A model generated the notes under the pieces. The model ran no database searches, was not told the origin of the DNA, and saw only the letters and a list, made by a program, of their open reading frames with translations. From the IMG/VR virus record IMGVR_UViG_3300045988_117466, positions 32,001-96,000 of that record: a stretch of 64,000 nucleotides of DNA; one strand, written 5' to 3'. Below, piece by piece: positions 20,290 through 58,307 of the stretch. The position numbers were made by a program, and so were the translations under genes. The stretch's first letter is position 1, and each line of letters begins with the position of its first letter. The stretch comes from a virus.

Positions 20290-20318
20290 GGAGAGTCGTT
20301 TGACTCTCCTTATTTTTA
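20290..20318 (+). terminator. rho-independent terminator
   Basis: Stem GGAGAGTC / GACTCTCC (8 bp) with loop GTTT, followed by TTATTTTTA. Confidence 0.7.
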
Positions 20319-20338
20319 TGCAAGAAAGGAGTTTTTAC

Positions 20339-41759: not shown

Positions 41760-44700
41760 TTATTTACCGATCGTAGGTTTACGACCAATTTTGTGATATT
41801 CTTTTAGTTTGTTAGCTTGCTCTTGATCATAAACCTGTTTTGCAACAACCTTAAGATCATTCAGAACACTCTTATCAACCATGCCTCCAGATTCTACTTT
41901 GATCAATGCATCATAATAAGAAGAGAAGTCTCCAGTACCAGTCATAATATCTTTTGTCTTAGAGGCTTTAACAACTGATTCAGAAATCTTAACAGCTTGT
42001 TTTAGCACATCAGATGTTTCTGGCTTCAGTAAGATTTCGTCTCTACGGACAGTAGCAATACCGTGATCATGATTACTTTGGATTACACCATTAAGTTTAG
42101 AAATTGGTATTACATCATCAATGACACCACCGTTTCTTACACCTGCATTTTTCAGAGCTTTTAAGATTTTATTTGATTGAGCTTGAGTATATGTTTTCCC
42201 CTTAGCTAAATAAAATTCTTTACCCTTCTTAGAGTTTTTGCTAGTAATTACTCCGAGTTTTCTACCAAGGTCTCCCATTGGGCCTGGATTGTGTACAACA
42301 TCATAACCCTTACTGGCTAAATAATTATTTAGAGGAGACCAGCTTTTAAGCTGAGCTTGAGTATAAGGAGTTCCTGTGTGGAATTTTAATCCTAATGACT
42401 TAGCTTTCTTTTGAGCAGGAGAAAGTTGAATTGTAACACTGAAACTTACTACAATTCCATTAGCCGATCTACACGTTGGAGTAATTGTTCCCTCATTGTC
42501 GCCTTTTGTGGCTGTAATAGTACATGAACTACCAGAGCCTGACATTGTTACATATCCAAGGCTGTTAGGATACCAAGAAAATGATTGTCCAGCTCCATCT
42601 GGAGGAACAATATCAGAAACAGTAACAGTCTTACTTTCTCCAGGGGCTAAAGTAATAGATGCTGGGCTAACACTGAAAGACATAAGATTATGTGCCTGTT
42701 GTTCGGGTGTTTTCATAGAACCACTAACACCACTAGCATTTCCAGTTTCAACTTTTGAAGAATCAACCTTAGAACCCGTAATACCAGTTGTACCAGTTAC
42801 ATTGGTATCAGGATTTGCAACATTATTAGTCACAGAGCTGTTCTTGTTCTGAGTATCTTTTGCGTTCTGTTCAGGTGTCTTGCCATTAGCAGAGCTATTG
42901 TATTCAGAATGATATAACTCACTTAGACCATTAATAAGTCCAGAATTAATAGCAGTGTCATTAATCTTCTTAAAGACATCAGAATAAGAATCTCCAACCT
43001 GTTTTAAGAACTTGCTAATAAGCTTAGATTGTTCATCCAGAGAACCGCTTAAAGATTTAAGCTGTTTATCCAAAGACTCTTGTAATTTTTCAGTCAGATC
43101 ATCGTATCCTTGGGATTCCATAGAATATTGATGTTCTTTCTTAGTGTCATCCATCTGTTCCTGGGCATCAGCAATTTGAGCATCTAATTTAGCTCTTTGT
43201 GCTTTTGCAGCTTCTCCTTCGACACCCTCTAAAGCAGCACGCTGAGCTTCAAGTGCTTGCAAATCTTTTGTCTGACTCTTGATGTTTTTGTCGTAATCGT
43301 AGTATTCTTTCTTACGACTCAATGCCTCTTTACGTTTATTAATGACTTTGACGAGAGCATCAACTTCAGCTTGCATCGTTGTCTTACCAAGTTCTACAAT
43401 TTGATTCTTATAGTCATTGGTATTTGTTGCAGCCTCACGAAGTTGTTTGTTGATTTCAGCTAACTTACTTTCAAAAGTGGCATCGCCAACCATTCGTTTA
43501 CCATTCTCGTCAAAAGTATCATGTAATTTATAGAGAGCATTTCTTTGCTCCATAAGATCAGCCATGTTTTGTTGGCCTTGACGAACATTATCGCTCAAAA
43601 GAGCAATTTTAGCTTTACCGTCTGTAGTCAACTTACCTGTGTCAGGATCGTTTAAGTAATCCTGATTCAGCATATTCATAAGATCGTTATTCTCATCGAT
43701 ACGAGTATTTCTCTTATCAATCTTACGACTGCTTTCATCAAGAGGGATCATAATAGCTTCTTGACGTAACTGTTCATTCTTTTCATCTAAAGAATAATTC
43801 TCTTCACGCCTTGAATACCAATCATCATAAAGCTCTTTGTATCTTTCAGAATCCTTAGCAACCTTATTCATCAGTTCCTGATCAGTTTTCATGATCTCAG
43901 CATTGACAGCAGCTCTGTCATTATTTCTAGCAATCTGATCAGTTTTTGACTGTTTAGTAGCATAGTCGCCATGAGCTTCAGCCATAGAAGCAGTATGTTC
44001 TAAAGCAGTAGCAGCATGTTCAGCTTCATCTGCAAGTCTTGTCAATCTATCAATTTTGATCTGATCAATTTCTTTTCTCACATTTGCAATAGCAGTATCA
44101 GTATCAACAATATTATTCTTAAAAGTTTGAATCTGAGCTTCATATGTATTCTTTTGTTCATCTGTTAAGATTCCCTTTTTCTTAGCCTTATCATACTCTG
44201 CCTGATATTTATTCAATTCTTGTAGCTGAATATTTTTCTGATTCTGATATTGCTGAATCTGATTGTTTAAATTAGCTGTTTTATTATCAAAAGTATCTGT
44301 CCCTTGAGCAATATTAAGATCATTGATCTTTTGATAGTTCTCTAGGATAGCAGACGTTTTAGATGCCATAGCATCATAATAACTAACAACCTTTTCAAGT
44401 TTGGTTTGTACCAGTTCTTGTTGTTGTTTCCTAAGCTCTTCAACTTGCTGTTTGCATTGTTTAGCTTTATCATACCAGTTCTTATATTCTTCAACAGCGC
44501 TACGAATCTTATCATTACTAATAGTTTTGATATCAATAGACCCGTTACGTACTTTCTTGAAATAAGATTTTAAAGCTTTTTGGTTCTTAGCTTTTGAAGC
44601 TTTTTTTGTTTTAGGAGCTTTCTTAACTGCTTGTTTCTCAAAGCTTTCATAGAATTTCTTATATTTCTTATAGCCTTGATTATTAGCAGTGATAGAAGAA

Positions 44701-45189
44701 CCAACACTCTTTAAAGCTTCATCGTAATCATTAACAGCAGAAGTAAGATCATGAACATTTTCTGCTTTAGCTGTCCAAAGATCAGTAGCAGCAGAAAGAT
44801 TTTCAATCTTTACTTCAATGAAATCAAAAGCTTTACCTATCTTATTAAGATAATTTTCAAGAGCTGATTTCTTAGATTTGGTTTTCTTCTTACCATTCCC
44901 AGAACCAGACTTACCAGAACCGGTTTTAGATTTACTAGAAGAAGTAGTTTTCTTCTTTTTACCTACAGTAGTTTTACTACCATTAGATTTAATTTTAATT
45001 CCAGCAGAGTTAGCATGAGCAGATCCATGAGCAAATGCTCCTTCACCACCAACAATCTTAGCTCTACTTCCAGTTTTTCCTTTGTTTAGGAGTTCCTTTG
45101 TTTGTAGGTGATTAAATACTATATCACCACGTTTGAGGTTCACAAATTCTGGGCCTTGAGACCCTACTGTAAACCATCTATTACCACGT
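41760..45189 (-). CDS. tape measure protein, exon 3
   Basis: The frame is open from 45188 (RGNRWFTVGSQGPEFVNLKRGDIVFNH...), upstream of the GTG called by the ORF track, and has no RBS. Coiled-coil rich, with a Big_2-like segment. Confidence 0.75.
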
Positions 45190-45319
45190 CAATTATGTTT
45201 TCATCGGTTCGCAACACCGACAAGAGTTTTCACTCCTCATGCTTTCACATGAGTTCAGACTATATCTTTTACCTGATTTTATTGTATGTATGTTTTGTTT
45301 GTTTTTTATTTGTGGGTAT

Positions 45320-45353
45320 TAAAAAAGAGCAGAAGTAAAATTACTTTTGCTCT
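45320..45353 (-). terminator. intrinsic terminator-like hairpin inside the intron, after the cargo genes
   Basis: Minus strand: a 12-bp stem AGAGCAAAAGTA / TACTTCTGCTCT (one mismatch) with loop ATTT, followed by TTTTT. Confidence 0.55.
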
Positions 45354-45380
45354 TCGGTAGAGGTTAAATTAATTTGTTTA

Positions 45381-46268
45381 TTATGCTCCTATACTTCGCC
45401 ATTTGCCTTTTGACCATTTGCAAATTTCTTCATCATCTATACAAAGGACATATTTTTTATTCCCGATTTTACAATTACAATGAATCTCTTCATCTCGGAT
45501 ATCCCACCATGTTAAAGATCCTTTGATTTTAAAATTTACCTTAGTCCATGTGCCAGGTTTGAGATCGATGTATTTTTTATTCCCTGTTAGTTTTAAGTTT
45601 CTGTCATATTTTTTGTAATCACAATCTAAAGAATAAGCACCTTTAGAATAAATACGAATTTTTTTATTACTTGCGTTAAAAAGCTTTGTTTTAAAAATAT
45701 TTGATCGAGTATCGTATTTATGCAACCAGCCGTTCATATGAATGCTTTTATATGGTTTTACAATTACGGAAATTGTTTTTTTAAAAGTTGTTGTTTTGTC
45801 CCAGGCGTTTTTAATTATATGATTGTTTAAGTCATCATCATAGTTCCCATTTTCTCCATAGCGATAATCATCATATACAGCAAAATGGTCTTCATAACAA
45901 TCAACACTTAATGTTATTTTGGATTTACCAAATTTCTTTGCATCAACATATGTATATAAATCTTCAACTCCAATTCCTTCATAAGAGTCTAAGGATATAT
46001 TTTTATTAGATCTTGACCATGAAATTGAATTAACATCCAAAGTGTATCCACCCTCTTCATCACCATAGTGCTTCCATAGCGTAGCATCATTTTTCATAAA
46101 TTCCCCATTATAGTATAGCTTAGGAGTAATTTTTTTCATCTGTCCATAATACATTGTAATAGTTTTAGGGACAGAGATACTGAAACCTGCTTGAGCGCTT
46201 TTGGTGTTAATAATCCATAAAAAACTAAACACTAATATAAAGGACATTAATTTTAAAAATTTTTTCAC
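45381..46268 (-). CDS. secreted protein with a Big_2-like Ig domain (intron cargo)
   Basis: GTG at 46268 follows AAGGAGGAGGGTGCTATT. Signal peptide KKFLKLMSFILVFSFLWIINTKSAQA. Ig-like ISVPKTITMYYGQMKKITPKL...KSKITLSV. Confidence 0.6.
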   Translation of the reverse strand: MKKFLKLMSFILVFSFLWIINTKSAQAGFSISVPKTITMYYGQMKKITPKLYYNGEFMKNDATLWKHYGDEEGGYTLDVNSISWSRSNKNISLDSYEGIGVEDLYTYVDAKKFGKSKITLSVDCYEDHFAVYDDYRYGENGNYDDDLNNHIIKNAWDKTTTFKKTISVIVKPYKSIHMNGWLHKYDTRSNIFKTKLFNASNKKIRIYSKGAYSLDCDYKKYDRNLKLTGNKKYIDLKPGTWTKVNFKIKGSLTWWDIRDEEIHCNCKIGNKKYVLCIDDEEICKWSKGKWRSIGA

Positions 46269-46284
46269 AATAGCACCCTCCTCC

Positions 46285-47154
46285 TTAAAATTCCTTTGTA
46301 ATCGGTTTTGTGAATGGTGTTTCACTTTCATAATAAGTATATTGCCCAGGGGATACCTTATCAGAATTTCCATAAGAAACTATTTCCATTTTGACAATCT
46401 TGTCCTTTGTTTCAAAACTGCTTTCTTCCCACATAGATTGATATGCTTTTAAATTATAGTAGTATAGAGATTGATCGCTTACTACGGTTCCATTTTTATC
46501 ATAAAAACGAATATCAATATTGGCCATATCATAATCATAGTCTGTTAGATTTTTGATTTTTATTCTATATGTCCGATATCCGTATGTAGATGCTTTGACT
46601 TCAATTTTTTCAATTTTATACGTGTCATCTATAAGCGTGGCTCCTTTCGGACAATATCCATTCTCTTTTATAAGTTCGTCATATGATTTCTTATCCCCTT
46701 TGGTTGTAAAAGAAAGATGTGTCTGATCAACTAACTTTTTTAGAATTTCCGCACGCTGGCTATTGTATACATAATAATTGTATTGTATCTTAGTCGGAGC
46801 ACTGGTGTAATCATCAAATAAATCATTTTGTGTATTTAAGGTTTTAATATATTCAGAAATTAAATTTTGTGTATTCTTGTTTTCGAATTGGATTTTAGTT
46901 TCTGAATATTTGTTTAGTGGTTTTAATTCAGTAGCGATATACTTTTGCATCATAGCTGCGTAGTCAGATTGAGATTGATTACTATCATCGGTCTTATCAC
47001 TAATCTCCCATCTTTTTTCGAGCCCAGTTTTTAAATCATTTGCTACTTGTTTGTCTGTGATTTTGGCTTCTTTTTGAGGAGCATCTTTCCCACAAGCACA
47101 AAATAAACATAAACTTGTAAGAAGCATACATCCAATTAAAATTTTCTTTTTCAT
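46285..47154 (-). CDS. putative lipoprotein (intron cargo)
   Basis: The ATG at 47154 follows GGAGGGAAAATGT. MKKKILIGCMLLTSLCLFCACGKD is a lipoprotein-type signal with Cys near the cleavage region. Confidence 0.6.
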   Translation of the reverse strand: MKKKILIGCMLLTSLCLFCACGKDAPQKEAKITDKQVANDLKTGLEKRWEISDKTDDSNQSQSDYAAMMQKYIATELKPLNKYSETKIQFENKNTQNLISEYIKTLNTQNDLFDDYTSAPTKIQYNYYVYNSQRAEILKKLVDQTHLSFTTKGDKKSYDELIKENGYCPKGATLIDDTYKIEKIEVKASTYGYRTYRIKIKNLTDYDYDMANIDIRFYDKNGTVVSDQSLYYYNLKAYQSMWEESSFETKDKIVKMEIVSYGNSDKVSPGQYTYYESETPFTKPITKEF

Positions 47155-47542
47155 ACATTTTCCCTCCATAATTTATTTATAAAGCAATTATACATTATTT
47201 GACATGTTTTTCATAGAGAGAATATTTGTTTATCATATTTATCAGGTAATTTATCATTTCGATTTAAACATTACTGTACCGCCATTAGCTTGCGGCTCTA
47301 CTCCTCATAAGAGGATAGTCGTTGAACCTTATCCTATTCGGATCTTGGCTGCTGATTGTCCATTGTAGCAGAAGCAGGGGATTTAACCTCGCTTCCATAT
47401 AATTAATTCTTTTTACTTTCGTAGCGTTCACATCTAGGCATATTTCATCCTTCTGTTGTAGCTTAATTATCTTTAAGACTTTCCAGCAATTAGATAAATT
47501 TTCACATATGTATTACTACATAAGGTCGCATATGTGGTTTAT

Positions 47543-50500
47543 ACGACAAGTTCGTCTCCTAATTCTCCTGTAAGAGCTCGTTCATCTTGTTTTAATCCCC
47601 AATCGCCACCATTAGCATGAGCATCTCCAGCAGATGATTTGAGCTTATCCGTTTTCTCTTGTAAATATTTGTTCTTTTCAGCCTGCACAACAGGATTAAT
47701 TTCTGATAAATCAGAGATTTTTGTTGTTCCCATCGCAAGAGCACGGCTTCCAAGCTTCTTAATTGTTCCGTGAGCAAAAGCACCAAATTCTTCAATATCA
47801 TCAAGCTCATTGTCGTACCAGTCTGTTAAGTCATCAACAGTACCTTGAGCGAAAGCATTTGAATATGGAATGAAAGATCCGTGTGCATTTGCTGTACCAT
47901 GGGCTTTGCCTTTCTTTTTTTTCTTTCCTGAGCTTTTCTTACCTCCTGAGGGCTCAGAAGGAGTACTACCAGTAACGAAATCAACAATTCGAGTGATATG
48001 TTTTGCTGCCCATCCTGCGATTGTTCCATCAGCAAGAGAGGTGTCCGCCTTAAGTTGTGCAGTGTTTGTAACTTTTTGGCTTTTCCATTCCTGAACTTTT
48101 TGATTCGCTTCAGTAATATCTCCTTTAAGATGTCCGGTTTTATCAACCTCAATCCCAAGGTATTCTAAAAGCTTTTGATTAGCTTTAGAAGCATCTACGT
48201 CTAATTTTCCTTCTTTGTCAATTGGAATATTTAAAAAATCAGCTATTTCTTTGGTGGCTTTTTTAGTATCTGCATCAACTTTAACGGTTGTAGACTTCTT
48301 TCCGCCTTTGCCAAGATTATCAATATCTTGTTTTGCCTTTTTGGTATTAGCCTTTACTTCAATAGTAACTTGACCTTTTTTCTTATGTTTATTGTATTCA
48401 TCAACAAGACGTTTAATCTCTTTATCAATCTTATCATTGCCAGTTTTTTCTACGGTATTATCTTTGCCAACCTTAAGTCCAGATTTTAACTTATTAAGTT
48501 GAGTGTTTAATCCAGATTTTGTTTTGATTTGCTTTCTAAAAACACCATTATCACTTTTGCCACTGACCATATTGGCAGTTTCTTTTTCAAGTTTAGATAC
48601 AGTTGTGTTTAAATTTTTGATTCTGCTTTTTAATTTACTTTGAGCTTCATTAAGTTTTTTCTTTGCACTTGCTTTATCATCGTCAGTTTTAGCATCTTTC
48701 CAAGTATCATAAGCATTGCTATAATCCTTTTGAGCTTTCTGTACAGAATCTCTAGCAGATTTAACTTTTTGATAAGAATTTTTCTTCCAGGATTCATATT
48801 TTTCGGTAGAATCTATAGCGTAATGGTTTTTGTCAGCTGTTGATTTAGCATTTGTAATAATTGAGTTACCATATTCAAACGCCTCTTCAGAATACTTATT
48901 ACCATATTTGTTTACAAGCTTTTTATCATTGGAATCAACAGCTCCTTCAAATTTGCTTTCTGCATCTTTAAATTCAGCCTTATCCTGAGCAATCTCAATC
49001 TCAAACTTTAACTTCTTGACCATCTCATCTGGGATATCTTCGCCAGCGTTTTTCAGTTTAAGAATCTGCTGTCTGTAATCCTCAATCTGTTCTCCTAATG
49101 CTGTTTTACCAGCACCATCTTTCATATTTTTCCATTTATCAACCAGTTGGTCAACATAACTTTCAGCTTTTTCGTACTGTTCTGTAACAGATTTAAAATC
49201 AATCTTACCACCATAATCTTTTAAACGATTCAGTACAGCTTCGAAAGGTTCAATACCCATACCCATTGCTTTAGCGGCAGTAGCAGTATTAGTGATCTTT
49301 CCAGAATATGTACCTTCAGCAGTTTTCTTTAAAGTACCAAAATCAGTATTAGCTTTTTGGGATTTGGCAGATAAATCATCTAAGAATTTAACCAGACCGC
49401 TATCATCAGAAGTAAAATACTTAGTAGTCTTAGCCCATGTCTTATCAAAAGTAGCAGCATCAGTCTTACCAGATGAACTCATAACACTTGTCAATGTTTT
49501 GAAATCATCTGTTCCAATAAGTCCTTTGTCACGTTCTTTCTTCTGAGCATTGAATGCTTCACGCATTGCTAAGTAAGTATCACCAGAGTCAGCTGTTTCT
49601 TTTGCTTGAAGATAATCACTCCAAGTAGACTGAGAGTTTGCCTGATTGATTAATTTAAGACGCTCTTTCAACTGATCAAGACTACCTGTCCATTTCTCAG
49701 TTTTAGAATTTAAGATATCAAAGGCTTGAGATGCTTCAGTAAGATTCAAACCATCAATGAAAGATTGAGTATCTTTATTATCACCAAGCTTTTCCTTGAT
49801 ATCTTCAATCATTGATTGAACATCTTTACCATCTTTTAAAAATCCTTCAAAATTTCCTTTATCGTCTAATTTGAAATCAACATTAAAAGAATCAGCCAAA
49901 GATTTGTTTAATTGCTCAATACTAACCCCATCATCTGTGGCAGCCTCTTTAAGCTTATCATAAGCATCTTTGGTATTATTGAGCCAATTCTGAACACCCT
50001 TGTTACTAGATTTATCATAGCTTTTAATAAACTTATCAAGAGCTCCTTGTGCTTTATCATCTTTAGCAAATTTCTTTGCTGCAGCAATAGTATTTTCTCG
50101 TTGTTCCTTGACCCAATCTTTATCTTTTAGATTATCTCTAGTCGCAGTATCTATGTTATAAGTATTAGATCCTAATCCTGTAAGGAAGCTTTGAGCACGA
50201 CTACCCAATTTATTATAATCAGTAATACTACCTGGCAATGAAGTGGCAATATCTTGATTGTATTGATCAAGAGCCTTTTGGGTTTTAGTAAGCCCAATTT
50301 TATATTTTTGAGCATAACCTGAGATTTTAGCGATTTCTTCACTAAGATCAGTTCCCTTAGGTAAATAGTCTTCAGTTTTATCCAAGATCTGCTTATATGA
50401 ACCAATAAATTTGTTCATGTCAGCTTGTTTGTATAAATCGAAGGTTTGATCCTTTGGTAATTTCAACACATCTTTGGCAGCCTTGTTGAAAGCAGTAGTT

Positions 50501-51531
50501 AACTGGCTGGTTTTATCGCCTTGCAGACCGTTTCTTAACTGAGTAGTTAAGGTGTCCATGTCGTTGCCCCAGAACTTATCAACACCAGTTCCAGAAGCTT
50601 TCTTAACATTCTCTATGTTACCTTCAACTAACTTGTCCCAAGTTTCATCAGAAGCATATTTCTTTTGTGCGCTTTCTTGTTTCTTCTCCTGAGATTCAAT
50701 CGCTTTGTCCATCAATCCAGATGTTTTAGCAATTGCATTTCCTTCTGCATCATATCCTGAAATAAGAGAAGGAGTAGTATCTAAAATTTCCTTGCGGATA
50801 CTTAAGAATCTCTCATAAGAAGAAGTATCTAAACTGATGTTATTACCGTATTCGTCTACACCTTTGGATAAAGATTCAAATTCTACTTTATTCCCTTTGA
50901 GAGTGGAAATATTACTTTGGACATCAGACATTTTGTCCTGATAAGTGCTACGGGTTTTATCAGCTTTTTCTACCTTATCTTTGTCATAAGTAGCAGCTTT
51001 CTTAATGTTTTCAATTCCTTTAGAAAGAGCACTTCCTGCAAATTCCATGATTAGACTTGCACCTAATCCTAATAACACATTTGCGGCAAAAGCACCAGCC
51101 TTAGCAGCTATGCCAGAAGCTTTAACATTTTCCACGAAACCTGCTAATCCACCTGCGGCAGATTGAGCAATGCTACCAGATTTTTCAACCTCTTTGTTGA
51201 ATTCTTCAAGACCTTTTCCATAACTATTTTTCTTATCACTAAGATCATAATTATTTTGCTTAGCTTGACCGTAAAGAGTACTAGCTGTATCACGACCTTT
51301 TTCAGTCTTCATTTCATCCTGAAGTCGCTTAAACATGTCCTCTTTTTCTTTGGTAGACTTATTACCAAAGATTTCAGGAACCATGCTGTTACTAAAGAAA
51401 TCCTGCAATCTACTTTGATCAGACTGCATATTCTCATAATTAGCCTTACGTCTTGTAGGACTAAGTGCATTCAGAATAGCACTACCAATTGGAAATTCAT
51501 TTTTACCAGTTTCTTTATTGTACTGTACAAG
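47543..51531 (-). CDS. tape measure protein, exon 2
   Basis: No ATG or RBS at the 5' end. Gly/Ala-rich hydrophobic segment (AAGGLAGF...AANVLLGLGASLIMEFAG), long coiled coils, ending ...GELGDELV(V). Confidence 0.7.
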
Positions 51532-51901
51532 CAAACTGTTTACTCAAGGGCAGGGAAATACCCTATTTTCACACTGGTAAAATATGTATTTGACAATCAC
51601 TAATGCAATATTCTATACTAATTATGTAACAAGAAATATGTATCATATCTCAAAGTAATAACACACATGGGGCTCACAATTCAGTGAGCCTTTTGTGTAT
51701 CTGAAATTAAAGGAGAAGAGAGGTTCATAAAGATACCTCTTTTTCGCAATTAACCTTGCAATATTTGGAAACATAAGTTATAATTAGAAACATCATGGAA
51801 TAATTAGTTCCCCAATTAATTATTTTCATACTAAAGGCATTCCTAGGAGGTAGGGATGCCTTTTCTCCATTTATGGGGTAACGATTCGTTCACCCATCAA
51901 A

Positions 51902-52708
51902 TTAACTTTCTAACTGATCTTCCAGATCCTTAATCTTAGAATCTCTAAATGCAATTTTCTTTCCAGTACTACGATGATTTGTTTCTATGTATCTACGTTT
52001 CAGATTGTTTAGTACATACTCTGCAGTCATTCTGTACATTGGATTTAGAGAACCAGAAGTTTCAATAATCGATTCAAGTTTATCATCGATCATTGTTACG
52101 ATTTTCTGCTTATACTCAGTTGCATTTAGTTTTCTATGATACTCATAGCGGTCTTTCTTTTTTAAATGAACGTGAACATCAATGATCTTATCAACAGTGG
52201 CTTCCAGATTTGTGTAATCAGATTCTAAAAGAACACGATCAATGTTGCGTACAGAATATTTAATTTTATCTGCATCATACTGTCTCTGAAGCTGACATTC
52301 ATCTGAAACTGCTACATCATATAGATCGTTATTATCTTGCTGAAGTTGTGTGATCAGCTCAATCATTCTCTCAAAAGCATCTGTGTATCTAGCTGTAAAG
52401 ATAAGAGCTTTGTTACCAGTAAACTTGTTTACCAGCATTGCAAATCCTTTACGATCAATATAATACATAGGACGCTCCTGGTTATTTAAATCAAGATAAG
52501 AGCCGAGGGAAAAATTTCCGGCGGCTAATTCAGGGATAACTTCTATAAAATGACGAATCTTTTTCATTACATCTGCATGGTCTTTCCCATAAGTCTCAGC
52601 CACATTGAGAGAAGTGGTGTACACATCACCATTGATCTCTTCAAGACCAAATTCCTCATTAATTTCTGCGATTTCACATTCAATAGCTTTCTTTGTTTCT
52701 TTTAACAT
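51902..52708 (-). CDS. Rha-family phage regulatory protein (intron cargo)
   Basis: TSLNVAETYGKDHADVMKKIRHF...PMYYIDRKGFAMLVNKFTGNKALIFTARYTDAFERM matches the Phage_pRha pattern. Confidence 0.65.
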   Translation of the reverse strand: MLKETKKAIECEIAEINEEFGLEEINGDVYTTSLNVAETYGKDHADVMKKIRHFIEVIPELAAGNFSLGSYLDLNNQERPMYYIDRKGFAMLVNKFTGNKALIFTARYTDAFERMIELITQLQQDNNDLYDVAVSDECQLQRQYDADKIKYSVRNIDRVLLESDYTNLEATVDKIIDVHVHLKKKDRYEYHRKLNATEYKQKIVTMIDDKLESIIETSGSLNPMYRMTAEYVLNNLKRRYIETNHRSTGKKIAFRDSKIKDLEDQLES

Positions 52709-52793
52709 AATTCAATTTCTCCTTTTAATATAAACTTAATTTCAAAAGGGGTCGCATTTCACGACCCCCTATCAACAACAATCTCACCAAACT

Positions 52794-53600
52794 TTAATCT
52801 TCAAGATCCCCAACAACTCTGTAAACAAGTTTCTGACCTTTACCAGTTACATAAGTCTGTGGAACAATCACATTGCAAATCACATGTTCACCAACTTCAA
52901 AACATCCGTTCTCAACGTATCTCTGATATGGCATGTTGTCCCGCATCAGGATTCCATTACTTCTCAGAATCTCAAAAAGACGATTCCTTCCAATGTCATA
53001 TCCATCATTCTGCAACAATTTGGCCATTGTGTTCATGTCGATCGTATCAGAAGAAGCAGTAACACATCTTGCAAAATCTACATCTTCTTTGGAAGCTTCA
53101 AGTTCTCCACGAAGCTCTGCGATTGTAGCTTGCTGAATTTCTAATGCTTTGAGTACAAACTCAGCTTCAGACAGATTTTTATATGGAATGTATCCACCTG
53201 TACGTCTGATCTGTGGAAGAACTTCAGATGTTACCCATCTTTTGAAACGATGTAATTTTTCAATTCTCTCTTCAATAAGGGGGTCATTTTGTGACACCCC
53301 CTTTGCTTTAGCAGGTTGCATTAAGAATAATAATGAATATAGTCCTGATTCATTAAGAACTGTGATGTTTTGCATTCCTCCAGCGGTTTGAATTTTTGCC
53401 ATTGTTTTGTCAGCTTTGTCAATTCTACGCAAGCTACGCTTGTGATTTGTATCTCCAAAAGCTATGCATACATCTTTTCCAACAAACCAAGGTTCATTGT
53501 CAATCTCAACGCATCTGATTGATCCAAATTCGTCATTTACGAAGTTCATGATCTGATTGTTATTTCCTACTTCATTTTCTGCTTTTGTTAAATTTGCCAT
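52794..53600 (-). CDS. Bro-N / KilA-C (ANT) antirepressor-like protein (intron cargo)
   Basis: FGSIRCVEIDNEPWFVGKDVCIAFG...ESGLYSLLF...FKRWVTSEVLPQIRRTGGY is Bro-N. The C-terminal MAKLLQNDGYDIGRNRLFEILRSNGIL is KilA-C-like. Confidence 0.7.
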   Translation of the reverse strand: MANLTKAENEVGNNNQIMNFVNDEFGSIRCVEIDNEPWFVGKDVCIAFGDTNHKRSLRRIDKADKTMAKIQTAGGMQNITVLNESGLYSLLFLMQPAKAKGVSQNDPLIEERIEKLHRFKRWVTSEVLPQIRRTGGYIPYKNLSEAEFVLKALEIQQATIAELRGELEASKEDVDFARCVTASSDTIDMNTMAKLLQNDGYDIGRNRLFEILRSNGILMRDNMPYQRYVENGCFEVGEHVICNVIVPQTYVTGKGQKLVYRVVGDLED

Positions 53601-53767
53601 ATTAAATTCTCCTTTTCTTCAGAAAGGTGCACCAAATGGCATAGAACAGATGGTGCTGATGATTTGCTTATCCTTCTATGCATATATGGCTAATTTACTA
53701 CCCCTTTAAAACACCAGGCTCTACCTAATGTTTTAAGACTCAATTAATGTGGTAAGTCTGCTAGAGC

Positions 53768-53796
53768 AGTATAAAAAGAGTATTAAATTATGTTAA
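53768..53796 (-). promoter_or_regulatory. candidate promoter inside the intron, upstream of the Bro-N gene
   Basis: Minus strand: TTAACA, a 17-nt spacer, then TATACT. Confidence 0.35.
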
Positions 53797-54233
53797 TGAG
53801 TATTTATAATATATCATATAAAATTCATTTCCCTATGTGCAAGCATGTTTCCATGCTGATAATTTTCTAGCGGCACATTCGCATACAGTTCTGATCATCC
53901 CTTTCTGATGTCACTCGTAAGGTGAGTTAACCAGATTCCCATTATGATCGATGGACGTTCCTCTAATATAGAGGCTTCGCTGCGGATTCTGTATAAATAT
54001 TGATCTTATTACTATATCTTAGGAATTACCCCTTGCCCTTAATACATCACTGTACTAAGTTAGTAATCAATATCGTTTAACAGTTCCCGTACATAAATTA
54101 TCAAAAAGTATTTCAGTTTCGGTTGTTTTCTAAGCAATCTCTTATTTGTATCACCATTTCGATACAAACTCGTTCTGTGTTACCACTAGATTGCTCTGGG
54201 CATTGTACATGAGGACAACTGATAATTTGCCCT

Positions 54234-57200
54234 ACCCAGCTTTCCTTTCGCTCCTGCGACTCCTAAAGCACCCATAAAGGCTGTTCTAAGAAGCCCAGCT
54301 TTAGTTACTAAATTTGTTATTTGAGTTCCAGCATCTACAAGTCCTTTGATAAAATCAGAAGAAATAGAAGTGTTCCACATTTCTTGGAAACTTGCTGTCA
54401 GCTGATCAACTTTACCTTGGATGGAATCAAGTTGAGTTTCGTTTTCACGAAGAGCTGATCCTTCTGAGTTTTGTGTTTCGTTGTAGACTTTTTCAAGCAT
54501 CTCTGGCTTCTGTAAAATACTGGCAACAATATTAGCTCTATTTTTTCCTGCAATTTTCTCTAAAATAGAAGCTTGTTTAAGGTCACCACCATCGGTAGAA
54601 CCAATTTCGCTCCAGATCTTACCCAATCCAAGTAAAAATTCATATGGATTTTTATAAGATCCATCATCTTTTAATAAATCAAAGCCTTTGTAGTCGTTTG
54701 ATGCTACTTTAGTTTGATTTTTAATGAGATCTCTCAACTGAGATGTGTTCTGAATGTAACCATCAACATCTTCACCTGCTTCTTGAAGCACATTCATATC
54801 AGTGCCTCGAATTCTTAAGGATACTGTTTTTAAACCAGCTCCAACGCTCTCAGGATTTTGCACGACGGAATTCCCAACTGTAGTAAGAGCAACTGACTGT
54901 TCATAGTTAGCACCTGCCGCCTGTAAAGCACTAGCAGATCTCTGTAATGAACTAGCAATCTCATCTGATGAAATAGGCTCTAAGTTACCGATATTATTCA
55001 AAACATCAACAACATTCTCTACATCATCAGCACCCTTATCGAATCCCTGCATAATAGAAATCAATGCATTAGTAGCATCATCTACCTGCTCAAATTCTGA
55101 TACATTCATGAGAATACCTGTCCACTTAGACATCTTCTCAGAATCTTGTGTGTTATAACCTAATCTAGCCCAGTCAGCAGTAGATTTGGTTAATTCCACA
55201 GCATCTCTACCGATATCTTTACCAGTAGCATACATATCTTTTTCGACAGTAGCATAAACATCACTCGTATCACTTGTGACTTTCTTTAACTCTGTCATTG
55301 CAGCATCCATTTCTTTGATGCTTTCAATTCCTTGTTGGAATCCTTGCCATACGACATCGATTCCACCCATTGAGATCAAGTACTTACTTAACTTAGTAAC
55401 TTCTTGACCCATATCTCCAACAATTTGTCCGAACAAACTCTTATATTCAGAACGACTCTTAAGCTGTGATCTAGCAATACCAGTATCCTGATTAAAATTA
55501 ATAGCATACTTTTCAAGCTTTCCATCATCTCTTGATCTTGCTTTGATATAAGCAGCCATTCCATTTCTACCCATACTGGTTTCAAGAATGTTACTGTTTA
55601 CACCAGAAGCTCTAAATAATTCTTCAGCTTTAGCTTCATTGAAATCATTTAAGGATAATCCTTCTCCGATAACAGTTCCCTGATTGTTCTGGAGCTTAAA
55701 TTGGTTTCTAAGTCTACCATGTTCAGTAAGCTCAGCGTTCAGTCTATTAAGCTCTCTAATATCTTCCTCAATTTCTTTATTGTCAAAGAAAACATCTCCA
55801 CTATGTTTTTCTTTTAAATCTCTAATTCGGTTAACTGTAGCTTCAACCTTAGTCGCAAATTCTGTTGTATATTGTTCAAGATCTTGACTAACAATGGTCT
55901 TTGATAAAGCTCTGTCAGCAGCATTTTTAACACGATCAGATTTAGGATTAGTATTCCCTAATGCTGTACCATCGTTTGCTCCACCAACATTTCCACCGGC
56001 TAAAACCTTGTTCATGTTCTTCAAGCCAGTAGCAATCTCACCAGTAAGATTAAATTTCTTATTTAAGTTATCAACCAGTCTTGTAACTTCACGAATTGAA
56101 CTACCAATACCAGCAAAAGCACCTGCGATCTTAGCAGAATAAGCAGTAGACTTGTCAGCTAGATTAGCAATCTTATTTGTCATAGTCTCAATATCAGAAG
56201 CTTTCTTGTCTGTAAAAGACTGTCCTGTATTGAATTTAACTTTTAAATCAAGATTCTTTTTCAGATCATTGATAATCTTCTCAACAGTAACTAAATCGTC
56301 TAATACAGCATCAGTATTGATACCAACTTTAATAGGCTCAGAAGCTTTTTCTCTTAAAGAAGTAAGCTTGCTTTCGGCTTGTGTTAACTCTTCATCATTA
56401 ACATTGATGTCAATTTTTGTGTCTCCGCTGTTAGAATCCTCTTTAAATTTTTGAGTTGAAGTAATAGCTTTCTCAAGATCTTCAACATTGCCTTTAAAAT
56501 TAACCGCAACGTCAATAGCATCCTTAGAGCGAAGTTCATTTACTTGTTGAAGAATGTTATCAATATTCTCTGTATTAGCTTTAAAATTAATAGTAATATC
56601 TATATTTTCTTTTGATCTTAGTTCATTAATTTCTTGTAAAATTGTATTGAACTCGGAATCGTTTGCTTTAAGATTAACAACGATATCTTTGCCTTCGTAA
56701 GAAGCAATCTTTTCATCAACCTTAGCCAATGCAGATTCTAACTGAGAAGTGTCAGCAGTAACTTTTACAGAAGATTCTTTAGGGTGTTCACTTTCTGTAA
56801 CACTGTTTGTCTTAGTTTCAGTAACATTTCTGCTTGGAAATTCACGAATTGCATCTTTGTTTTTGCTTAACCATTCACGGCTTTCTTGAGACCAAGGAGT
56901 TTCAATAGTAGCTCCTTTTTCAGCTTTAATAGATGTGTATGTATCAACAGTTTTAACAGCTTCTTGAAGACCTTTGGCTTCCTCGGCATAGATATTTTCT
57001 CCGTTCTTAATCTTTTCATTGAATTTCTGGATATATTCTCTAGCGCTTTGGAAAGTACTGATCAGGTCTTTGTTACTCATGTCTTTCATGTCAGCAGGCA
57101 TTTCAAAATCTTTATCAACTTCCCTTTGATGGAGTTCTAATTTTTTAACTGCTTCAGATAAGAATTGTGTAATATTTTTATCAACAGCATGAGTAGTAGA

Positions 57201-58307
57201 ACCTTCTTCTGGCTGATAATTGCTTAGTATTTTACTGTAATACTCGGCTTTCTGTAATTCCTCATCGGTAAGAGTTTCACCTTTGGATTGTTTTTCCATC
57301 AGGTTCTTACTGCCGGCTTTTGCACCGTTGTATTGTTGAGGACTAATTGCTTGTCCTTCTTGAAATTTATATGGTTTACTAGAGTCAAACCCAGAAATCA
57401 AAATACCTTCTTGGGCTAAAATATCACTCCATTGTTTATTGAATTGGTTTTTAAGTTTATTGGTTACTCCTGTAGTCTTTTTGATATTTCTATCAGTGCT
57501 AGTCATAGCCTGAGTAAGAGCCTTATTAACCTGTTTAACAACATCCTCTTCGATCGGAGATAAAATATTTTTTAAGTCGATTCCCTGGGCTTGGAACAGG
57601 CTTTTATAACCTTCTGTACCTGCAAAATCAGTTTGTCCTGTTAGCAATTCTTTTATAAACTTTTGCCTAGAAGTAATAGTATTTCTTAACTCACCAGCCT
57701 GTTTGAGCATTTCATCGTTCTTACTCCAATCAGAATTTGACATTAAACCATGCAGTTCTTCAAAAGCTTTTCCAATATCTTCTTGAGCTAGCATTCCAGC
57801 CATTGCATATTCTTTAAAATCATTTAAAGAGATACCATTTTTAGAATTACCATGTAATTCGTTATATTGTGTTTTAGATTCGTTGTAAAAATCTTTATAT
57901 TTATCTTGCTTATAAGTCTTTTTTTGTACTTCGTGTACCTTAGAAGCAGCTCTTGTGGCAAGATCACTGTCCTCGTAGCTACGTTTAGAAACCTTGCTTA
58001 AATTGTCGTTCTTAATTTTTTCAAGATCATTGTAAGTAGTTTTAAGATTCTTTAACTTCTTTTCTGCATCGGCCAAATCTTTAGATTCATATACAAATTG
58101 AAAATTTGTTAATCCAGTTTTATCAATATAACTTCTGATGCTTTTAGCAACTTTATCCATAGAGGATTTATTGATATTAGCACCAATAGGTACTTGGACT
58201 TGTTTAAAACCATTTACTACTTCGCTTTTAGCTTTTTCTAAAGAGGCTTGATCAACGTCAACCCCCATAGAGGCAGTAAAAGAAATTACTTGTGTAGTTT
58301 CTGCCAT
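54234..58307 (-). CDS. tape measure protein, exon 1 (contains the TP901-type TMP core region)
   Basis: RBS GGGGGTGAAATAATAA precedes the ATG. DDATNALISIMQGF...SSDEIASSLQRSASALQAAGANYEQSVALTTVGNSVVQNPESVGAGLKTVSLRI matches the TMP core. The exon ends ...GVAGAKGKLG. Confidence 0.75.

What the first reader, a model, noticed from the sequence alone, without database searches (positions are those of the whole stretch)
45190..47542. td-like group I intron in the tape-measure gene carries a lipoprotein and a secreted Ig-like protein instead of a homing endonuclease
On the minus strand all four classical group I core elements are readable:
- P: AATTGCTGGAAAG
- Q: AATCAGCAGCC
- R: GTTCAACGACTATCC, followed by TCTTATGAGGAGTAG. 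As I recall it, T4 td reads AACGACTATCCCTTTGGGGAGTAG.
- S: AAGATATAGTCTGAAC

P1 pairs exon GUCGU with GCGAC, with U.G at the splice site. The 3' end ...AACATAATTG resembles the td end ...AACATAATG.

Between R and S lie about 1.9 kb with two well-initiated genes. Both encode exported proteins (lipoprotein-type and Sec-type signals). Neither has a GIY-YIG, HNH, LAGLIDADG or His-Cys box motif.

I am not aware of a described self-splicing intron used as a carrier for moron-like envelope genes. Prophage lipoproteins such as Ltp of phage TP-J34 are known to block DNA injection by acting on the incoming phage's TMP. A lipoprotein gene embedded in the TMP gene therefore suggests superinfection exclusion, but this is inference only.
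Basis: partly seen in the sequence, partly recalled or inferred. Interest (0 to 1): 0.85.

Follow-up and report, generated by a model that had tools for sequence, protein, structure and literature searches.

The report
Self-splicing intron carrying swappable surface genes
A group I self-splicing intron in the tail tape-measure gene of a temperate gut phage of Anaerostipes hadrus holds, in one RNA loop, a two-gene cassette for cell-surface proteins with its own promoter-like site and terminator hairpin instead of a homing endonuclease; the cassette differs between related phages, and a decayed copy of the intron with the lipoprotein gene intact sits in the host chromosome.

Summary
A 2353-nt subgroup-IA group I intron (minus strand, 47542..45190) interrupts a tape-measure gene inside a conserved motif.

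- **Ribozyme:** P1 with U.G, P2-P9.2, terminal G and P10 are all readable. Rfam hits both halves. Against five bona fide relatives, 33 of 93 pairs show compensatory change.
- **Splicing:** the predicted junction keeps the frame and aligns without gaps to uninterrupted tape-measure proteins.
- **Cargo:** the P8 loop holds 1963 nt: promoter-like site, lipoprotein gene, secreted tandem Ig-like protein gene, terminator hairpin. No nuclease, transposase or defence-family match was found.

New findings:
1. The same intron sits at the same site in more than 20 metagenomic phage contigs. The ribozyme arms are 98-100% identical except in one divergent relative, but there are at least eight different cargo sets, nearly all membrane or exported proteins.
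2. The Anaerostipes hadrus chromosome carries a 5'-truncated, core-deleted copy plus 14 nt of exon 2. The lipoprotein gene there is intact (dN/dS about 0.1).
3. A second candidate intron upstream carries antirepressor and Rha genes.

Superinfection exclusion remains an inference. I rate this a new variant of a known kind.

The parts
47543..51531 (-). Tape-measure exon upstream of the focal intron. It ends ...GELGDELVV with GT of the last codon at 47544-47543. The mechanical ORF 47539..51534 runs 4 nt into the intron (A + TAA stop).
   Evidence: The junction motif matches annotated tape-measure proteins.
45190..47542 (-). Group I intron (subgroup IA), 2353 nt: 302-nt 5' ribozyme arm, 1963-nt P8-loop insert, 88-nt 3' arm.
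47525..47547 (-). P1 hairpin. Exon GUCGU plus AUA pairs with the internal guide UAUGCGAC, with U.G at the 5' splice site (47543|47542). The loop ACCAC (47538..47534) is the P10 partner of exon 2.
47241..47522 (-). Ribozyme core, 5' arm: P2 (47522..47507), P3 5' (47500..47493), P/P4 (47491..47479), P5 and P5a-c, Q/P4' (47357..47347), P6/P6a (47343..47331), R/P7 5' (47327..47313), P7.1 (47314..47303), P7.2 (47296..47278), P3' (47255..47248), P8 5' strand ACCUGAU (47247..47241).
   Evidence: Compensatory changes occur in P5a, P6a, P7.1 and P7.2.
47187..47214 (-). Sigma-70-like promoter of the cargo cassette (ATGAAA, 16 nt, TATAAT; 10 of 12 matches). It is retained in related phage introns and in the chromosomal copies.
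46285..47154 (-). Cargo gene 1: lipoprotein, 289 aa. RBS GGAGGG; lipobox LFCA|C. AlphaFold model: N-terminal five-helix bundle (34-167) plus C-terminal beta-sandwich (179-288). Matches PHROG 34415.
45381..46268 (-). Cargo gene 2: secreted protein, 295 aa. RBS GGAGGAGGG, GTG start, signal peptide ending AQA|G. Variable N-terminal Big_2-like Ig domain plus conserved C-terminal beta-sandwich domain.
45321..45353 (-). Intrinsic-terminator-like hairpin plus T6 closing the cassette (dG -13.9 kcal/mol, z = -5.6). The outer stem AGAGCA/UGCUCU and the T-run are found in every family member. The inner stem changes compensatorily in L005.
45190..45277 (-). Ribozyme 3' arm: P8 3' strand AUCAGGU (45277..45271), S/J8-7 plus P7' (45268..45253), P9 (45253..45236), P9.1, P9.2 (45220..45204), terminal G at 45190.
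41760..45189 (-). Tape-measure exon downstream of the intron. It starts A45189, completing the GTA codon, then RGNRWFTVGSQGPEFVNLKRGDIVFNH... There is no RBS or plausible start of its own. GUGGU 45187..45183 forms P10.
51532..54233 (-). Candidate second group I-like intron in the same gene (2702 nt), carrying an ANT/Bro-N antirepressor gene (53600..52797) and a Rha gene (52708..51905) downstream of its core. P1 is CUGGGU/GCCCAG with U.G at 54234|54233. P10 is UUGUACA/UGUACAA, adjacent in the guide sequence. Unverified.
   Evidence: There is no Rfam hit.

Best explanation
The element is a functional subgroup-IA group I intron in the tape-measure gene of a large temperate siphophage of Anaerostipes hadrus.

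**Lytic growth (inferred from anatomy, not shown).** The late transcript contains the intron. P1 (U.G at the 5' splice site), the P3-P9 core, the terminal G and P10 direct GTP-initiated self-splicing. This joins ...GDELVV to RGNRWF... and restores one tape-measure reading frame.

**The cargo cassette.** The 1963-nt P8 loop is not an endonuclease gene. It is a moron-type cassette: a sigma-70-like promoter, a lipoprotein gene, a gene for a secreted two-domain Ig-like protein, and an intrinsic-terminator-like hairpin.

**Expression (inferred).** The cassette is transcribed by host RNA polymerase on its own, including in lysogens. Its products go to the outer face of the membrane and to the wall.

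**Role of the intron.** It acts as a safe harbour that lets accessory genes sit inside an essential gene without destroying it. The near-invariant ribozyme arms, promoter and terminator frame a slot whose content is exchanged by recombination. Related phages carry at least eight different sets of envelope-protein genes in that slot.

**Chromosomal copy.** A fragment running from about intron nt 85 to 14 nt into exon 2 was captured by the A. hadrus chromosome. There the ribozyme decayed but the lipoprotein gene stayed under purifying selection.

**Function (inference, about 35%).** Most likely the cargo proteins act at the cell surface against incoming related phages (superinfection exclusion or receptor masking). 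Less likely, they change host surface properties.
For: **Ribozyme**
- Rfam RF00028 matches both halves.
- RNAalifold independently recovers P1, P4, P5, P5a-c, P6, P6a, P7, P7.1 and P9; 35 of 64 pairs are compensatory.
- The full hand-drawn structure, including the P3/P7 pseudoknot and P10, has 91.8% of cells paired against 33-40% for slid controls. 33 pairs changed on both sides, and 0 of 500 shuffles reach that.

**Splice junction**
- It is in frame.
- It aligns without gaps to Lactococcus phage tape-measure proteins across residues 59-114, with the junction at 80/81.
- It aligns likewise to an uninterrupted 2722-aa ORF in MT835469.1.
- Exon 2 has no start site or RBS.

**Selection for splicing**
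- The ribozyme arms are 98-100% identical in all related phages examined except L005 (86% and 96%).
- In the chromosomal copy, where splicing is irrelevant, P1-P4 are missing, Q/P6 is deleted and P7 is mutated.

**Cassette**
- Promoter-like site; terminator hairpin with z = -5.6.
- The terminator hairpin was found in every member, and the promoter/5'UTR in most; both are present in the chromosomal copies.
- Cargo sets differ between phages.
- No endonuclease, transposase or defence-family hits.

**Cargo proteins**
- Lipoboxes are present in five different first-gene families.
- ORF2 is Ig-like.

**Chromosomal copy**
- It sits between housekeeping genes of A. hadrus.
- ORF1 dN/dS is 0.08-0.13.

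**Temperate phage:** integrase at 20300-21562.
Against: - There are no RNA data, so splicing is inferred only.
- I could not scan an ORF-deleted construct with the Rfam model. The two partial scores (41.2 and 15.6 bits) only informally exceed the 50-bit gathering threshold.
- A terminator hairpin inside the intron should attenuate late transcription of exon 2 and the downstream tail genes unless it is read through. No antitermination system was identified.
- The promoter is a consensus match only. The scan found 20 such sites in 2.7 kb against 13 expected.
- No intron-less allele, cargo-less intron or endonuclease-bearing version was found in this lineage. How the intron arrived, and whether it is mobile, is unknown.
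- The cargo proteins have no characterised homologue. The lipoprotein is unrelated to Ltp and matches no PADLOC family.
Confidence: 0.75

Rival explanations
1. The ribozyme is dead. The tape-measure function is supplied by two separate polypeptides (exon 1 product ending ...ELVV*, exon 2 product from GTG 45143). The 'intron' is just an intergenic region that once was an intron and now houses morons.
For: - The exon 1 ORF ends in a stop two codons into the intron, and the ORF listing offers a GTG start at 45143.
- The internal terminator would naturally separate two transcription units.
- No full-length Rfam hit.
Against: - The GTG at 45143 has no Shine-Dalgarno site and lies 15 codons inside conserved protein sequence. 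That sequence aligns contiguously across the junction in intron-less homologues.
- The ribozyme arms are 98-100% conserved in nearly all related phages, with compensatory changes in the divergent L005 copy (P6a, P7.1, P7.2).
- The chromosomal copy shows how the same sequence decays when splicing is not needed.
Confidence: 0.07
2. The intron and cassette are as described, but the cargo is a lysogenic-conversion module that changes host surface properties (adhesion to mucus or other cells, wall remodelling, nutrient capture), not a phage-exclusion system.
For: - ORF2 has Big_2/intimin-like Ig domains typical of adhesins.
- The N-terminal helical domain of ORF1 is shared with cellular proteins of Clostridia that carry a peptidoglycan-binding domain.
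- No PADLOC hit.
- Long-term retention in the host chromosome under purifying selection fits any host benefit.
Against: - Cargo sets turn over extremely fast between near-identical introns.
- The N-terminal domain of ORF2 is hypervariable at 38-46% identity, while ORF1 in the same cassettes is 85-92% identical. Both are more typical of arms-race genes.
- Placement inside the tape-measure gene, which is a known target of exclusion lipoproteins (Bebeacua 2013, cited in PMC3952083), may not be coincidental.
- None of this is decisive.
Confidence: 0.3
3. The insert is a degenerate mobility module: a cryptic homing endonuclease, or an IStron-type transposon whose transposase genes were replaced.
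For: - The nearest ribozyme relatives are IStrons (C. botulinum phage D-1873, Bacillus phage LY2, with transposase genes downstream) and an intron with a GIY-YIG gene (Enterocloster phage CB457P2).
- An endonuclease once in P8 could have been displaced.
Against: - No GIY-YIG, HNH, LAGLIDADG, His-Cys, TnpA or TnpB signal in the window's cargo or in seven proteins from the other cargo sets.
- Both window proteins have export signals and all-beta or helical non-enzymatic folds.
- IStron cargo lies 3' of the complete ribozyme core rather than in an internal loop, whereas this cargo lies in P8.
Confidence: 0.03
4. Because the cassette ends in a terminator, the two intron halves are made on separate transcripts and the tape-measure exons are joined by trans-splicing through P8 and the tertiary contacts.
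For: - A terminator hairpin with a T-run lies 44 nt upstream of the P8 3' strand.
- From my own knowledge, split group I introns broken in peripheral loops can trans-splice.
Against: - No promoter was identified between the terminator and P8'.
- Read-through of a -13.9 kcal/mol hairpin is a simpler explanation.
- There is no precedent in phages that I know of.
Confidence: 0.03

Closest known systems
Subgroup IA2 phage group I introns with homing-endonuclease ORFs (T4 td / I-TevI; Enterocloster phage CB457P2 intron with an I-TevI-like gene)
   Same: Same ribozyme architecture (P1-P10 with P7.1 and P7.2) and the same P, Q, R and S consensus. Inserted in a highly conserved coding motif of a phage gene. 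Carries an ORF-bearing insert that does not disturb the core.
   Different: The insert is not an endonuclease gene. It is a two-gene promoter-to-terminator cassette for exported proteins. It lies in P8, and it differs between otherwise near-identical introns. No intron-less alleles were found.
Group I introns in tape-measure genes of Bacillus cereus-group prophages (TMP-IVS1-3; Tourasse and Kolsto 2008, PMC2504315)
   Same: Group I introns of class IA1/IA2 inside prophage tape-measure genes. Several can occur per gene. At least TMP-IVS3b lacks a complete homing endonuclease gene.
   Different: In the section I read, those introns are not described as carrying accessory genes. Here the intron holds a variable 1.3-2.0 kb cargo of envelope-protein genes.
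IStrons (CdISt1, CboIStron: group I intron fused to IS605/IS607 tnpA and tnpB; PMC10690162)
   Same: A precedent for an IA2 group I intron carrying non-endonuclease genes so that an insertion in a coding gene is phenotypically silent. The IStron ribozymes are among the nearest sequence relatives, 75-78% identical over the core.
   Different: IStron cargo is the element's own transposition machinery and lies 3' of the complete core, overlapping an omega RNA. Here the cargo has no mobility genes, sits in the P8 loop, and encodes surface proteins.
Prophage morons encoding exclusion lipoproteins (Ltp of S. thermophilus phage TP-J34, which targets the incoming tape-measure protein)
   Same: A gene with its own promoter-like site and terminator hairpin, in a temperate phage, encoding a surface lipoprotein. 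Presence varies among close relatives, and copies are scattered in bacterial chromosomes (this work).
   Different: No sequence or fold similarity to Ltp. Located inside an intron inside the tape-measure gene rather than in the lysogeny module. The exclusion function is untested.

Membership tests
Group I intron (Rfam RF00028), subgroup IA | P1 helix formed by the 5' exon end and an internal guide sequence, with U.G at the 5' splice site | tested here: met
   GUCGU|AUA pairs with UAUGCGAC; U47543 pairs with G. The helix is kept, with compensatory changes, in relatives (helix 1).
Group I intron (Rfam RF00028), subgroup IA | Conserved core P3-P4-P5-P6-P7-P8 with P/Q/R/S elements and the P3/P7 pseudoknot | tested here: met
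   All helices were located. 91.8% of cells are paired and 33 of 93 pairs are compensatory, against 6-15 for slid controls. RNAalifold recovers the nested helices independently.
Group I intron (Rfam RF00028), subgroup IA | Score at or above the curated Rfam gathering threshold (50 bits) | tested here: inconclusive
   The whole-window scan gave 0 hits. The halves score 41.2 bits (model 5-158) and 15.6 bits (model 221-251). The tool cannot scan an ORF-deleted construct. Five aligned relatives include three that score 70-96 bits.
Group I intron (Rfam RF00028), subgroup IA | Terminal guanosine at the 3' end and P10 pairing with the 3' exon | tested here: met
   The intron ends ...AUAAUUG (G45190). 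Exon 2 GUGGU pairs with ACCAC in the P1 loop. This is invariant in the family, so there is no covariation evidence (helix 3).
Group I intron (Rfam RF00028), subgroup IA | P7.1 and P7.2 between P7 and P3' (subgroup IA hallmark) | tested here: met
   CCUC-UUAU-GAGG, and GCCGC-loop-GCGGU. In L005, P7.2 becomes AUUAC/GUAAU, with four of five pairs changed and still paired.
Group I intron (Rfam RF00028), subgroup IA | GTP-dependent self-splicing | not testable with these tools
   Needs in vitro transcription and splicing, or RNA-seq.
Mobile (homing) group I intron | Intron-encoded homing endonuclease (GIY-YIG, HNH, LAGLIDADG, His-Cys box, PD-(D/E)XK) | tested here: not met
   No such Pfam family was found in the window's cargo or in seven proteins from the other cargo sets.
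Mobile (homing) group I intron | Coexistence of intron-plus and intron-minus alleles among close relatives | tested here: not met
   There is no exact or degenerate intron-less junction in IMG/VR or JGI metagenomes. No protein spans the junction at high identity. Only distant homologues at about 40-50% identity are uninterrupted.
IStron | tnpA and/or tnpB (IS605/IS607) within the intron and an omega RNA at the 3' end | tested here: not met
   No transposase domains. No Rfam omega-RNA-type hit in the window, whereas RAGATH-18 is found in the Bacillus IStron locus L032.
Moron (autonomously expressed accessory cassette of a temperate phage) | Own promoter and terminator flanking the gene(s) | tested here: met
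   Computational only. Promoter-like site with 10 of 12 matches. Hairpin of -13.9 kcal/mol plus T6. Both are conserved across phages and in the chromosomal copy.
Moron (autonomously expressed accessory cassette of a temperate phage) | Variable presence or content among otherwise similar phages; phage is temperate | tested here: met
   At least eight cargo sets in a conserved frame. An integrase is present in the window.
Moron (autonomously expressed accessory cassette of a temperate phage) | Expression from the repressed prophage | not testable with these tools
   Needs transcript mapping in lysogens.
Ltp-type superinfection-exclusion lipoprotein | Surface lipoprotein (signal peptide with lipobox) | tested here: met
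   MKKKILIGCMLLTSLCLFCA|C. By eye it fits the general lipobox pattern (a run of hydrophobic residues followed by [AGS]-C). No predictor was run.
Ltp-type superinfection-exclusion lipoprotein | Homology to Ltp | tested here: not met
   No Pfam or PDB sequence match. The predicted fold is a five-helix bundle plus beta-sandwich, and the best PDB fold hits are IrmA and DUF1425.
Ltp-type superinfection-exclusion lipoprotein | Blocks DNA injection of incoming phage via its tape-measure protein | not testable with these tools
   Needs plating and injection assays.

The most novel reading that the evidence does not exclude
In this lineage of about 130-kb gut phages, group I introns have been converted from selfish endonuclease carriers into cassette platforms.

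- The invariant ribozyme arms serve as homology arms.
- Through them, self-contained accessory modules are swapped between co-infecting phages, prophages and a 'fossil' intron in the host chromosome. The modules are surface proteins in one intron and antirepressor/Rha regulators in a second intron of the same tape-measure gene.
- The chromosomal fossil is a domesticated exclusion gene that protects Anaerostipes hadrus against the phage family it came from.
- Placement inside the tape-measure gene links each exclusion module to the tape-measure allele it must spare or target.
Probability: 0.25. Interest if true: 0.88.

Novelty: new variant of a known kind. Interest (0 to 1): 0.74.

Why it matters
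Self-splicing introns in phages are regarded as selfish DNA whose only passengers are the nucleases or transposases that move them. Here the passenger slot holds ordinary accessory genes with their own expression signals.

- **A general principle.** An intron can make any essential gene a safe insertion site for host-interaction genes. Annotation pipelines would miss this, because they would call a broken tape-measure gene plus 'hypothetical proteins'.
- **Direct evidence of benefit to the cell.** The bacterium kept the lipoprotein gene under purifying selection after the ribozyme around it decayed. That marks it as a strong candidate for a new phage-exclusion or surface-modification protein in an abundant butyrate-producing gut commensal.
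- **Candidates for the same function.** The at least eight alternative cargo sets form a ready-made panel of candidate proteins.
- **A testable question.** The system allows experiments on how a ribozyme folds around a 2-kb transcribed, translated and terminated insert.

Tried and rejected
**Searches that found nothing or could not be run**
- Whole-window Rfam scans at gathering and at E-value threshold found no intron. Only scans of the separate halves did. The tools cannot scan an ORF-deleted construct.
- tblastn of both cargo proteins against 50,697 phage records: no match.
- PADLOC: no match. Pfam: nothing meaningful.
- PDB sequence search with the ORF1 profile: nothing. Fold searches gave only generic beta-sandwich or Ig hits.
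- Intron-less allele: not found by the degenerate pattern or the exact 20-mer in IMG/VR, by the exact 20-mer in JGI metagenomes, or by a protein search across the junction.
- Cargo-less intron (P8 loop of 30 nt or less): none found.
- The intron 3' arm pattern in GTDB species-representative genomes: 0 hits. The ORF1 profile there gave only remote Blautia hits. Host assignment therefore rests on a MAG name and on an exactly matching A. hadrus flanking protein.

**Ideas considered and dropped**
- I first read the ribozyme as far more conserved than its exons, which would imply recent lateral spread. I dropped this when the exon profile showed that the adjacent 200-300 nt of exon are also 93-99% identical.
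- I considered the cargo as a mobile element of its own. I saw no obvious terminal repeats around the insert beyond the P8 stem, by inspection of the sequence. No repeat search was run.

**Unresolved side checks**
- Upstream gap 54233..51532: Rfam negative, and no tape-measure protein bridges it by tblastn. It remains a candidate from manual and comparative analysis only.
- Gaps in the DnaE gene: Rfam negative.

Full report
**1. The observation**

- The upstream ORF (47539..51534) ends ...GELGDELVV. The last exon base is T47543.
- Exon GUCGU plus intron AUA pairs with UAUGCGAC 11 nt downstream. This gives an 8-bp P1 with U.G at the splice site.
- The intron ends ...AACAUAAUUG at G45190.
- Exon 2 begins A45189, which completes the GTA codon. 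It continues in frame as RGNRWFTVGSQGPEFVNLKRGDIVFNH...
- Exon 2 GUGGU can pair with ACCAC in the P1 loop (P10).

**2. Is it a group I intron?**

The whole-window Rfam scan finds nothing. The 5' 300 nt alone match RF00028 at 41.2 bits (E = 2.8e-9, model 5-158). The 3' piece matches model 221-251 at 15.6 bits. The model is presumably broken by a 1963-nt insert.

The 5' core is 73-78% identical to introns in Clostridium phages c-st and D-1873 (annotated 'Group I catalytic intron'), and in Clostridioides, Enterocloster, Bacillus and Alicyclobacillus phages. Three of five relatives that I fetched score 70-96 bits as complete RF00028 hits.

I replaced the P8 loop by GAAA and aligned six family members with those five relatives.
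- RNAalifold independently recovered P1, P4, P5, P5a-c, P6, P6a, P7, P7.1 and P9. 35 of 64 pairs were compensatory.
- My full hand-drawn structure has 93 pairs, including the P3/P7 pseudoknot, P7.2, P8, P9.1, P9.2 and P10.
- In that structure 91.8% of cells are paired, against 33-40% when partners are slid by 1-3 columns.
- 33 pairs changed on both sides, against 6-15 for slid controls. 0 of 500 shuffles reach the observed values.
- P7.1 and P7.2 place the intron in subgroup IA. The IStron literature assigns its close relatives to IA2, Twort-like.

**3. Is the host gene the tape-measure gene, and is the junction right?**
- A 150-aa peptide built across the predicted junction aligns in one piece, over residues 59-114 with the junction at 80/81, to annotated tape-measure proteins of Lactococcus phages BK5-T, 4268 and bIL286 at about 51% identity.
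- It aligns without a gap at the junction to an uninterrupted 2722-aa ORF of a 176-kb faecal phage, MT835469.1. There GDELVV|RGNRW matches GTESIV-RDGQW.
- The ORF further upstream (54186..58307) has the PhageMin_Tail domain.
- The distal tail protein gene (DUF6558/SPP1_Dit; Dit) lies about 0.9 kb downstream of exon 2, after one small ORF.
- Exon 2 has no ribosome-binding site. The only 'start' is a GTG 15 codons inside conserved sequence.

**4. The cargo**

P8 (ACCUGAU 47247..47241 with AUCAGGU 45277..45271) closes a 1963-nt loop. Its contents are:
- a sigma-70-like site, ATGAAA-16-TATAAT (47214..47187);
- ORF1 (47154..46285), with RBS GGAGGG;
- ORF2 (46268..45381), with RBS GGAGGAGGG and a GTG start;
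- a hairpin plus T6 (45353..45321; -13.9 kcal/mol, z = -5.6). The simple terminator scan missed it because of one mismatch in the stem.

ORF1 (289 aa) has a lipoprotein signal, ...LCLFCA|CGKD.
- It matches PHROG 34415, of unknown function.
- It is modelled (pLDDT 77) as a five-helix bundle plus a C-terminal beta-sandwich. Only generic fold matches were found, and there is no PDB sequence relative.
- Its N-terminal helical domain is shared with cellular proteins of Clostridia that also carry a PG_binding_1 domain.

ORF2 (295 aa) has a Sec signal, ...SAQA|G.
- It is modelled (pLDDT 76) as tandem Ig-like sandwiches; the top hits are the intimin D00-D0 domains.
- Its N-terminal domain aligns with the Big_2 region of longer homologues. 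Its C-terminal domain is the conserved part.

No nuclease, transposase or PADLOC family matches either protein.

**5. The same intron elsewhere: a conserved frame with a variable slot**

The exon-intron junction sequence occurs in 13 IMG/VR contigs of 44-134 kb. Look-ups of cargo homologues brought in further phage contigs. In all of them the intron is at the same site. Its length ranges from 1798 to 2515 nt.

| Segment | Identity to the window |
|---|---|
| 5' ribozyme arm | 98-99.7% (86% in the most divergent relative, L005) |
| 3' ribozyme arm | 99-100% (96% in L005) |
| Promoter/5'UTR | 83-95% |
| Cargo | 51-73%, effectively unalignable |

The terminator hairpin is always present.

The cargo sets seen are:
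- lipoprotein 289 + Ig-like 295 (the window);
- lipoprotein 289 + Ig-like 269;
- lipoprotein 293 (39% identical) + a zinc-ribbon/transmembrane protein of 254-259 aa;
- lipoprotein 365 + Ig-like 280;
- lipoprotein 365 alone;
- lipoprotein 380 + zinc-ribbon protein 259;
- lipoprotein 380 + zinc-ribbon protein 200;
- DUF4177 protein + a 438-aa zinc-ribbon/transmembrane protein.

Almost all are membrane or exported proteins, and none is a nuclease.

The adjacent exons are also well conserved. The 300 nt upstream are 93-97% identical, after which identity collapses to about 50%. The 200 nt downstream are 96-99% identical. The ribozyme is therefore not an outlier. The cargo is.

No intron-less allele and no cargo-less intron were found in IMG/VR, in JGI metagenomes or in the 5.8-billion-protein collection.

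**6. A fossil copy in the host chromosome**

ORF1 homologues at 85-92% identity lie between housekeeping genes: the mannitol PTS operon on one side, and cysN/cysD or LCP/FtsEX/PcsB genes on the other. A flanking protein is identical to an Anaerostipes hadrus protein, and one cluster member is named from an A. hadrus MAG.

blastn shows that the chromosomal segment matches the window from about intron nt 85 to 14 nt into exon 2 (ACGTGGTAACAGAT). It therefore derives from a phage tape-measure intron, not the reverse.

In the chromosomal copy the ribozyme is broken:
- P1 through the 5' strand of P5a is absent;
- the P5'-Q-P6 segment is replaced by a short palindrome;
- the P7 strand GACUAU has become AGCUAU, and P3' is mutated.

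The promoter-like site, RBS, ORF1, terminator and P8'-P9.2 are retained. The second gene is either a 281-aa Ig-like protein (46% identical to ORF2) or a decayed 69-aa remnant.

ORF1 dN/dS is 0.08-0.13 in every phage-chromosome and chromosome-chromosome comparison. The two chromosomal alleles (dS 1.0) are each closer to a phage allele (dS 0.39 and 0.43) than to each other, although they share identical insertion junctions. Their chromosomal flanks are 91-92% identical.

I read this as a single capture followed by gene conversion from infecting phages through the retained arms. This is an inference. Independent capture at the same site is not excluded.

**7. Mechanism**

*Shown:*
- the anatomy of a complete IA ribozyme with comparative support;
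- an in-frame junction matching uninterrupted homologues;
- a promoter-to-terminator cassette of exported proteins in P8;
- cargo turnover within a conserved frame;
- retention of the lipoprotein gene, but not the ribozyme, in the host.

*Inferred:*
- self-splicing restores the tape-measure mRNA during lytic growth;
- the cassette is transcribed by host polymerase in lysogens (the phage has an integrase);
- the terminator is read through late in infection;
- the proteins act at the cell surface.

Superinfection exclusion is the reading I favour, at about 35%. The reasons are the hypervariability, the surface location, the host domestication, and the precedent that Ltp targets tape-measure proteins. 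The lipoprotein is not an Ltp homologue, however, and an adhesin or surface-conversion role is a serious rival.

**8. Comparison with what is known**

Group I introns in prophage tape-measure genes are described: B. cereus group, three sites, classes IA1/IA2, with at least one lacking a complete endonuclease gene (PMC2504315). IStrons show that IA2 introns can carry non-endonuclease genes (PMC10690162). They are among the nearest ribozyme relatives here.

I could not find any description of the following:
- an intron whose internal loop is a slot for exchangeable, autonomously expressed envelope-protein genes;
- a chromosomal intron fossil kept for its cargo.

Hence my rating: a new variant of a known kind.

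**9. Beyond the finding**

The 2.7-kb gap between the PhageMin_Tail ORF and the 1331-aa ORF (54233..51532) looks like a second intron.
- The 1331-aa ORF has no RBS or ATG.
- Exon CUGGGU pairs with GCCCAG, with U.G at 54234|54233.
- The adjacent UGUACAA pairs with UUGUACA, starting one base after a G at 51532. The resulting junction...GAKGKLG|LVQYNKETG..., is in frame.
- A P4-P6 domain with group I-like P and Q elements is predicted.
- An R/S-like P7 (GAUCAU/AUGAUC) shows two compensatory changes in L005.
- Its cargo, an ANT/Bro-N antirepressor gene and a Rha gene, lies after the core, as in IStrons.
- Against it: Rfam finds nothing, and I could not place a canonical P3.

I give this about 50%. 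If it is real, the tape-measure protein is about 3830 aa, encoded in three exons.

Noticed in passing
window 51532-54233 (minus strand): Candidate second group I-like intron in the same tape-measure gene. P1 is CUGGGU/GCCCAG with U.G at 54234|54233. P10 is UUGUACA/UGUACAA, adjacent in the guide sequence. It has a group I-like P4-P6 domain, and P7 GAUCAU/AUGAUC shows compensatory changes in L005. The in-frame junction is ...GAKGKLG|LVQYNK. Cargo: ANT/Bro-N antirepressor (53600..52797) and Rha (52708..51905). There is no Rfam hit and P3 is unclear.
   Followed up: partly
L001 5727-7386; L023 7727-9927 (also L002-L004, L024-L027): The Anaerostipes hadrus chromosome holds a 5'-truncated, core-deleted copy of the focal intron plus 14 nt of exon 2. 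The promoter-like site, lipoprotein gene (dN/dS about 0.1) and terminator are intact. The two chromosomal alleles are each closer to a phage allele than to each other.
   Followed up: yes
L023 ~7646-7700 and ~9998-10055; L023 ~7470-7585: The chromosomal insert is flanked, at about 30 and 75 nt distance, by an imperfect direct repeat of about 45 nt (aaggtcaatgRaaTYtataaMcaccgatttRttRag). A long perfect palindrome lies just upstream. Their relation to the capture event is unknown.
   Followed up: no
window 1752-7016 (+ strand): The DNA polymerase III alpha (DnaE) gene is split into three ORFs: PHP plus the N-terminal part of the NTPase domain (1752-3257), the rest of the NTPase domain plus the finger domain (4363-5433), and HHH_6 (5622-7016). 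The gaps are 1.1 kb (holding a 172-aa ORF with no Pfam hit) and 0.19 kb. These may be further introns. Rfam finds nothing there.
   Followed up: partly
window 20300-21654: A tyrosine integrase gene (20300-21562) is followed within 80 nt by a 17-nt match to the 3' end of tmRNA (21638-21654, RF00023 model 347-363, E = 0.008). This suggests an attP that overlaps the host ssrA gene.
   Followed up: no
window 47543-51531 versus L005-L022: The tape-measure exon upstream of the intron is mosaic. It is 93-97% identical to relatives for 300 nt next to the intron, then drops abruptly to about 50%. Exon 2 stays at about 92-96% apart from one Ser/Lys-rich patch.
   Followed up: partly
window 45381-46268 (ORF2) and homologues P0073-P0080, L023 8883-9728, L034 5883-6692: The N-terminal Ig-like domain of ORF2 is hypervariable: ORF2 overall is 38-46% identical between cassettes whose ORF1 is 85-92% identical. 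The C-terminal domain (YDTRSN...IRIYSKGAYSLDCDYKKYDR...TWWD..DEEIH) is strongly conserved. That domain also ends longer Big_2 proteins of about 455-470 aa.
   Followed up: partly
L029 (C. botulinum phage D-1873), L032 (Bacillus phage vB_BceH_LY2), L031 (Enterocloster phage CB457P2): The nearest ribozyme relatives are IStron-type elements: intron plus transposase genes, in LY2 directly after a truncated portal ORF, with a RAGATH-18 RNA at the 3' end. Another relative is an intron carrying an I-TevI-like gene. In the records the portal and other host genes are annotated as separate or truncated ORFs.
   Followed up: no
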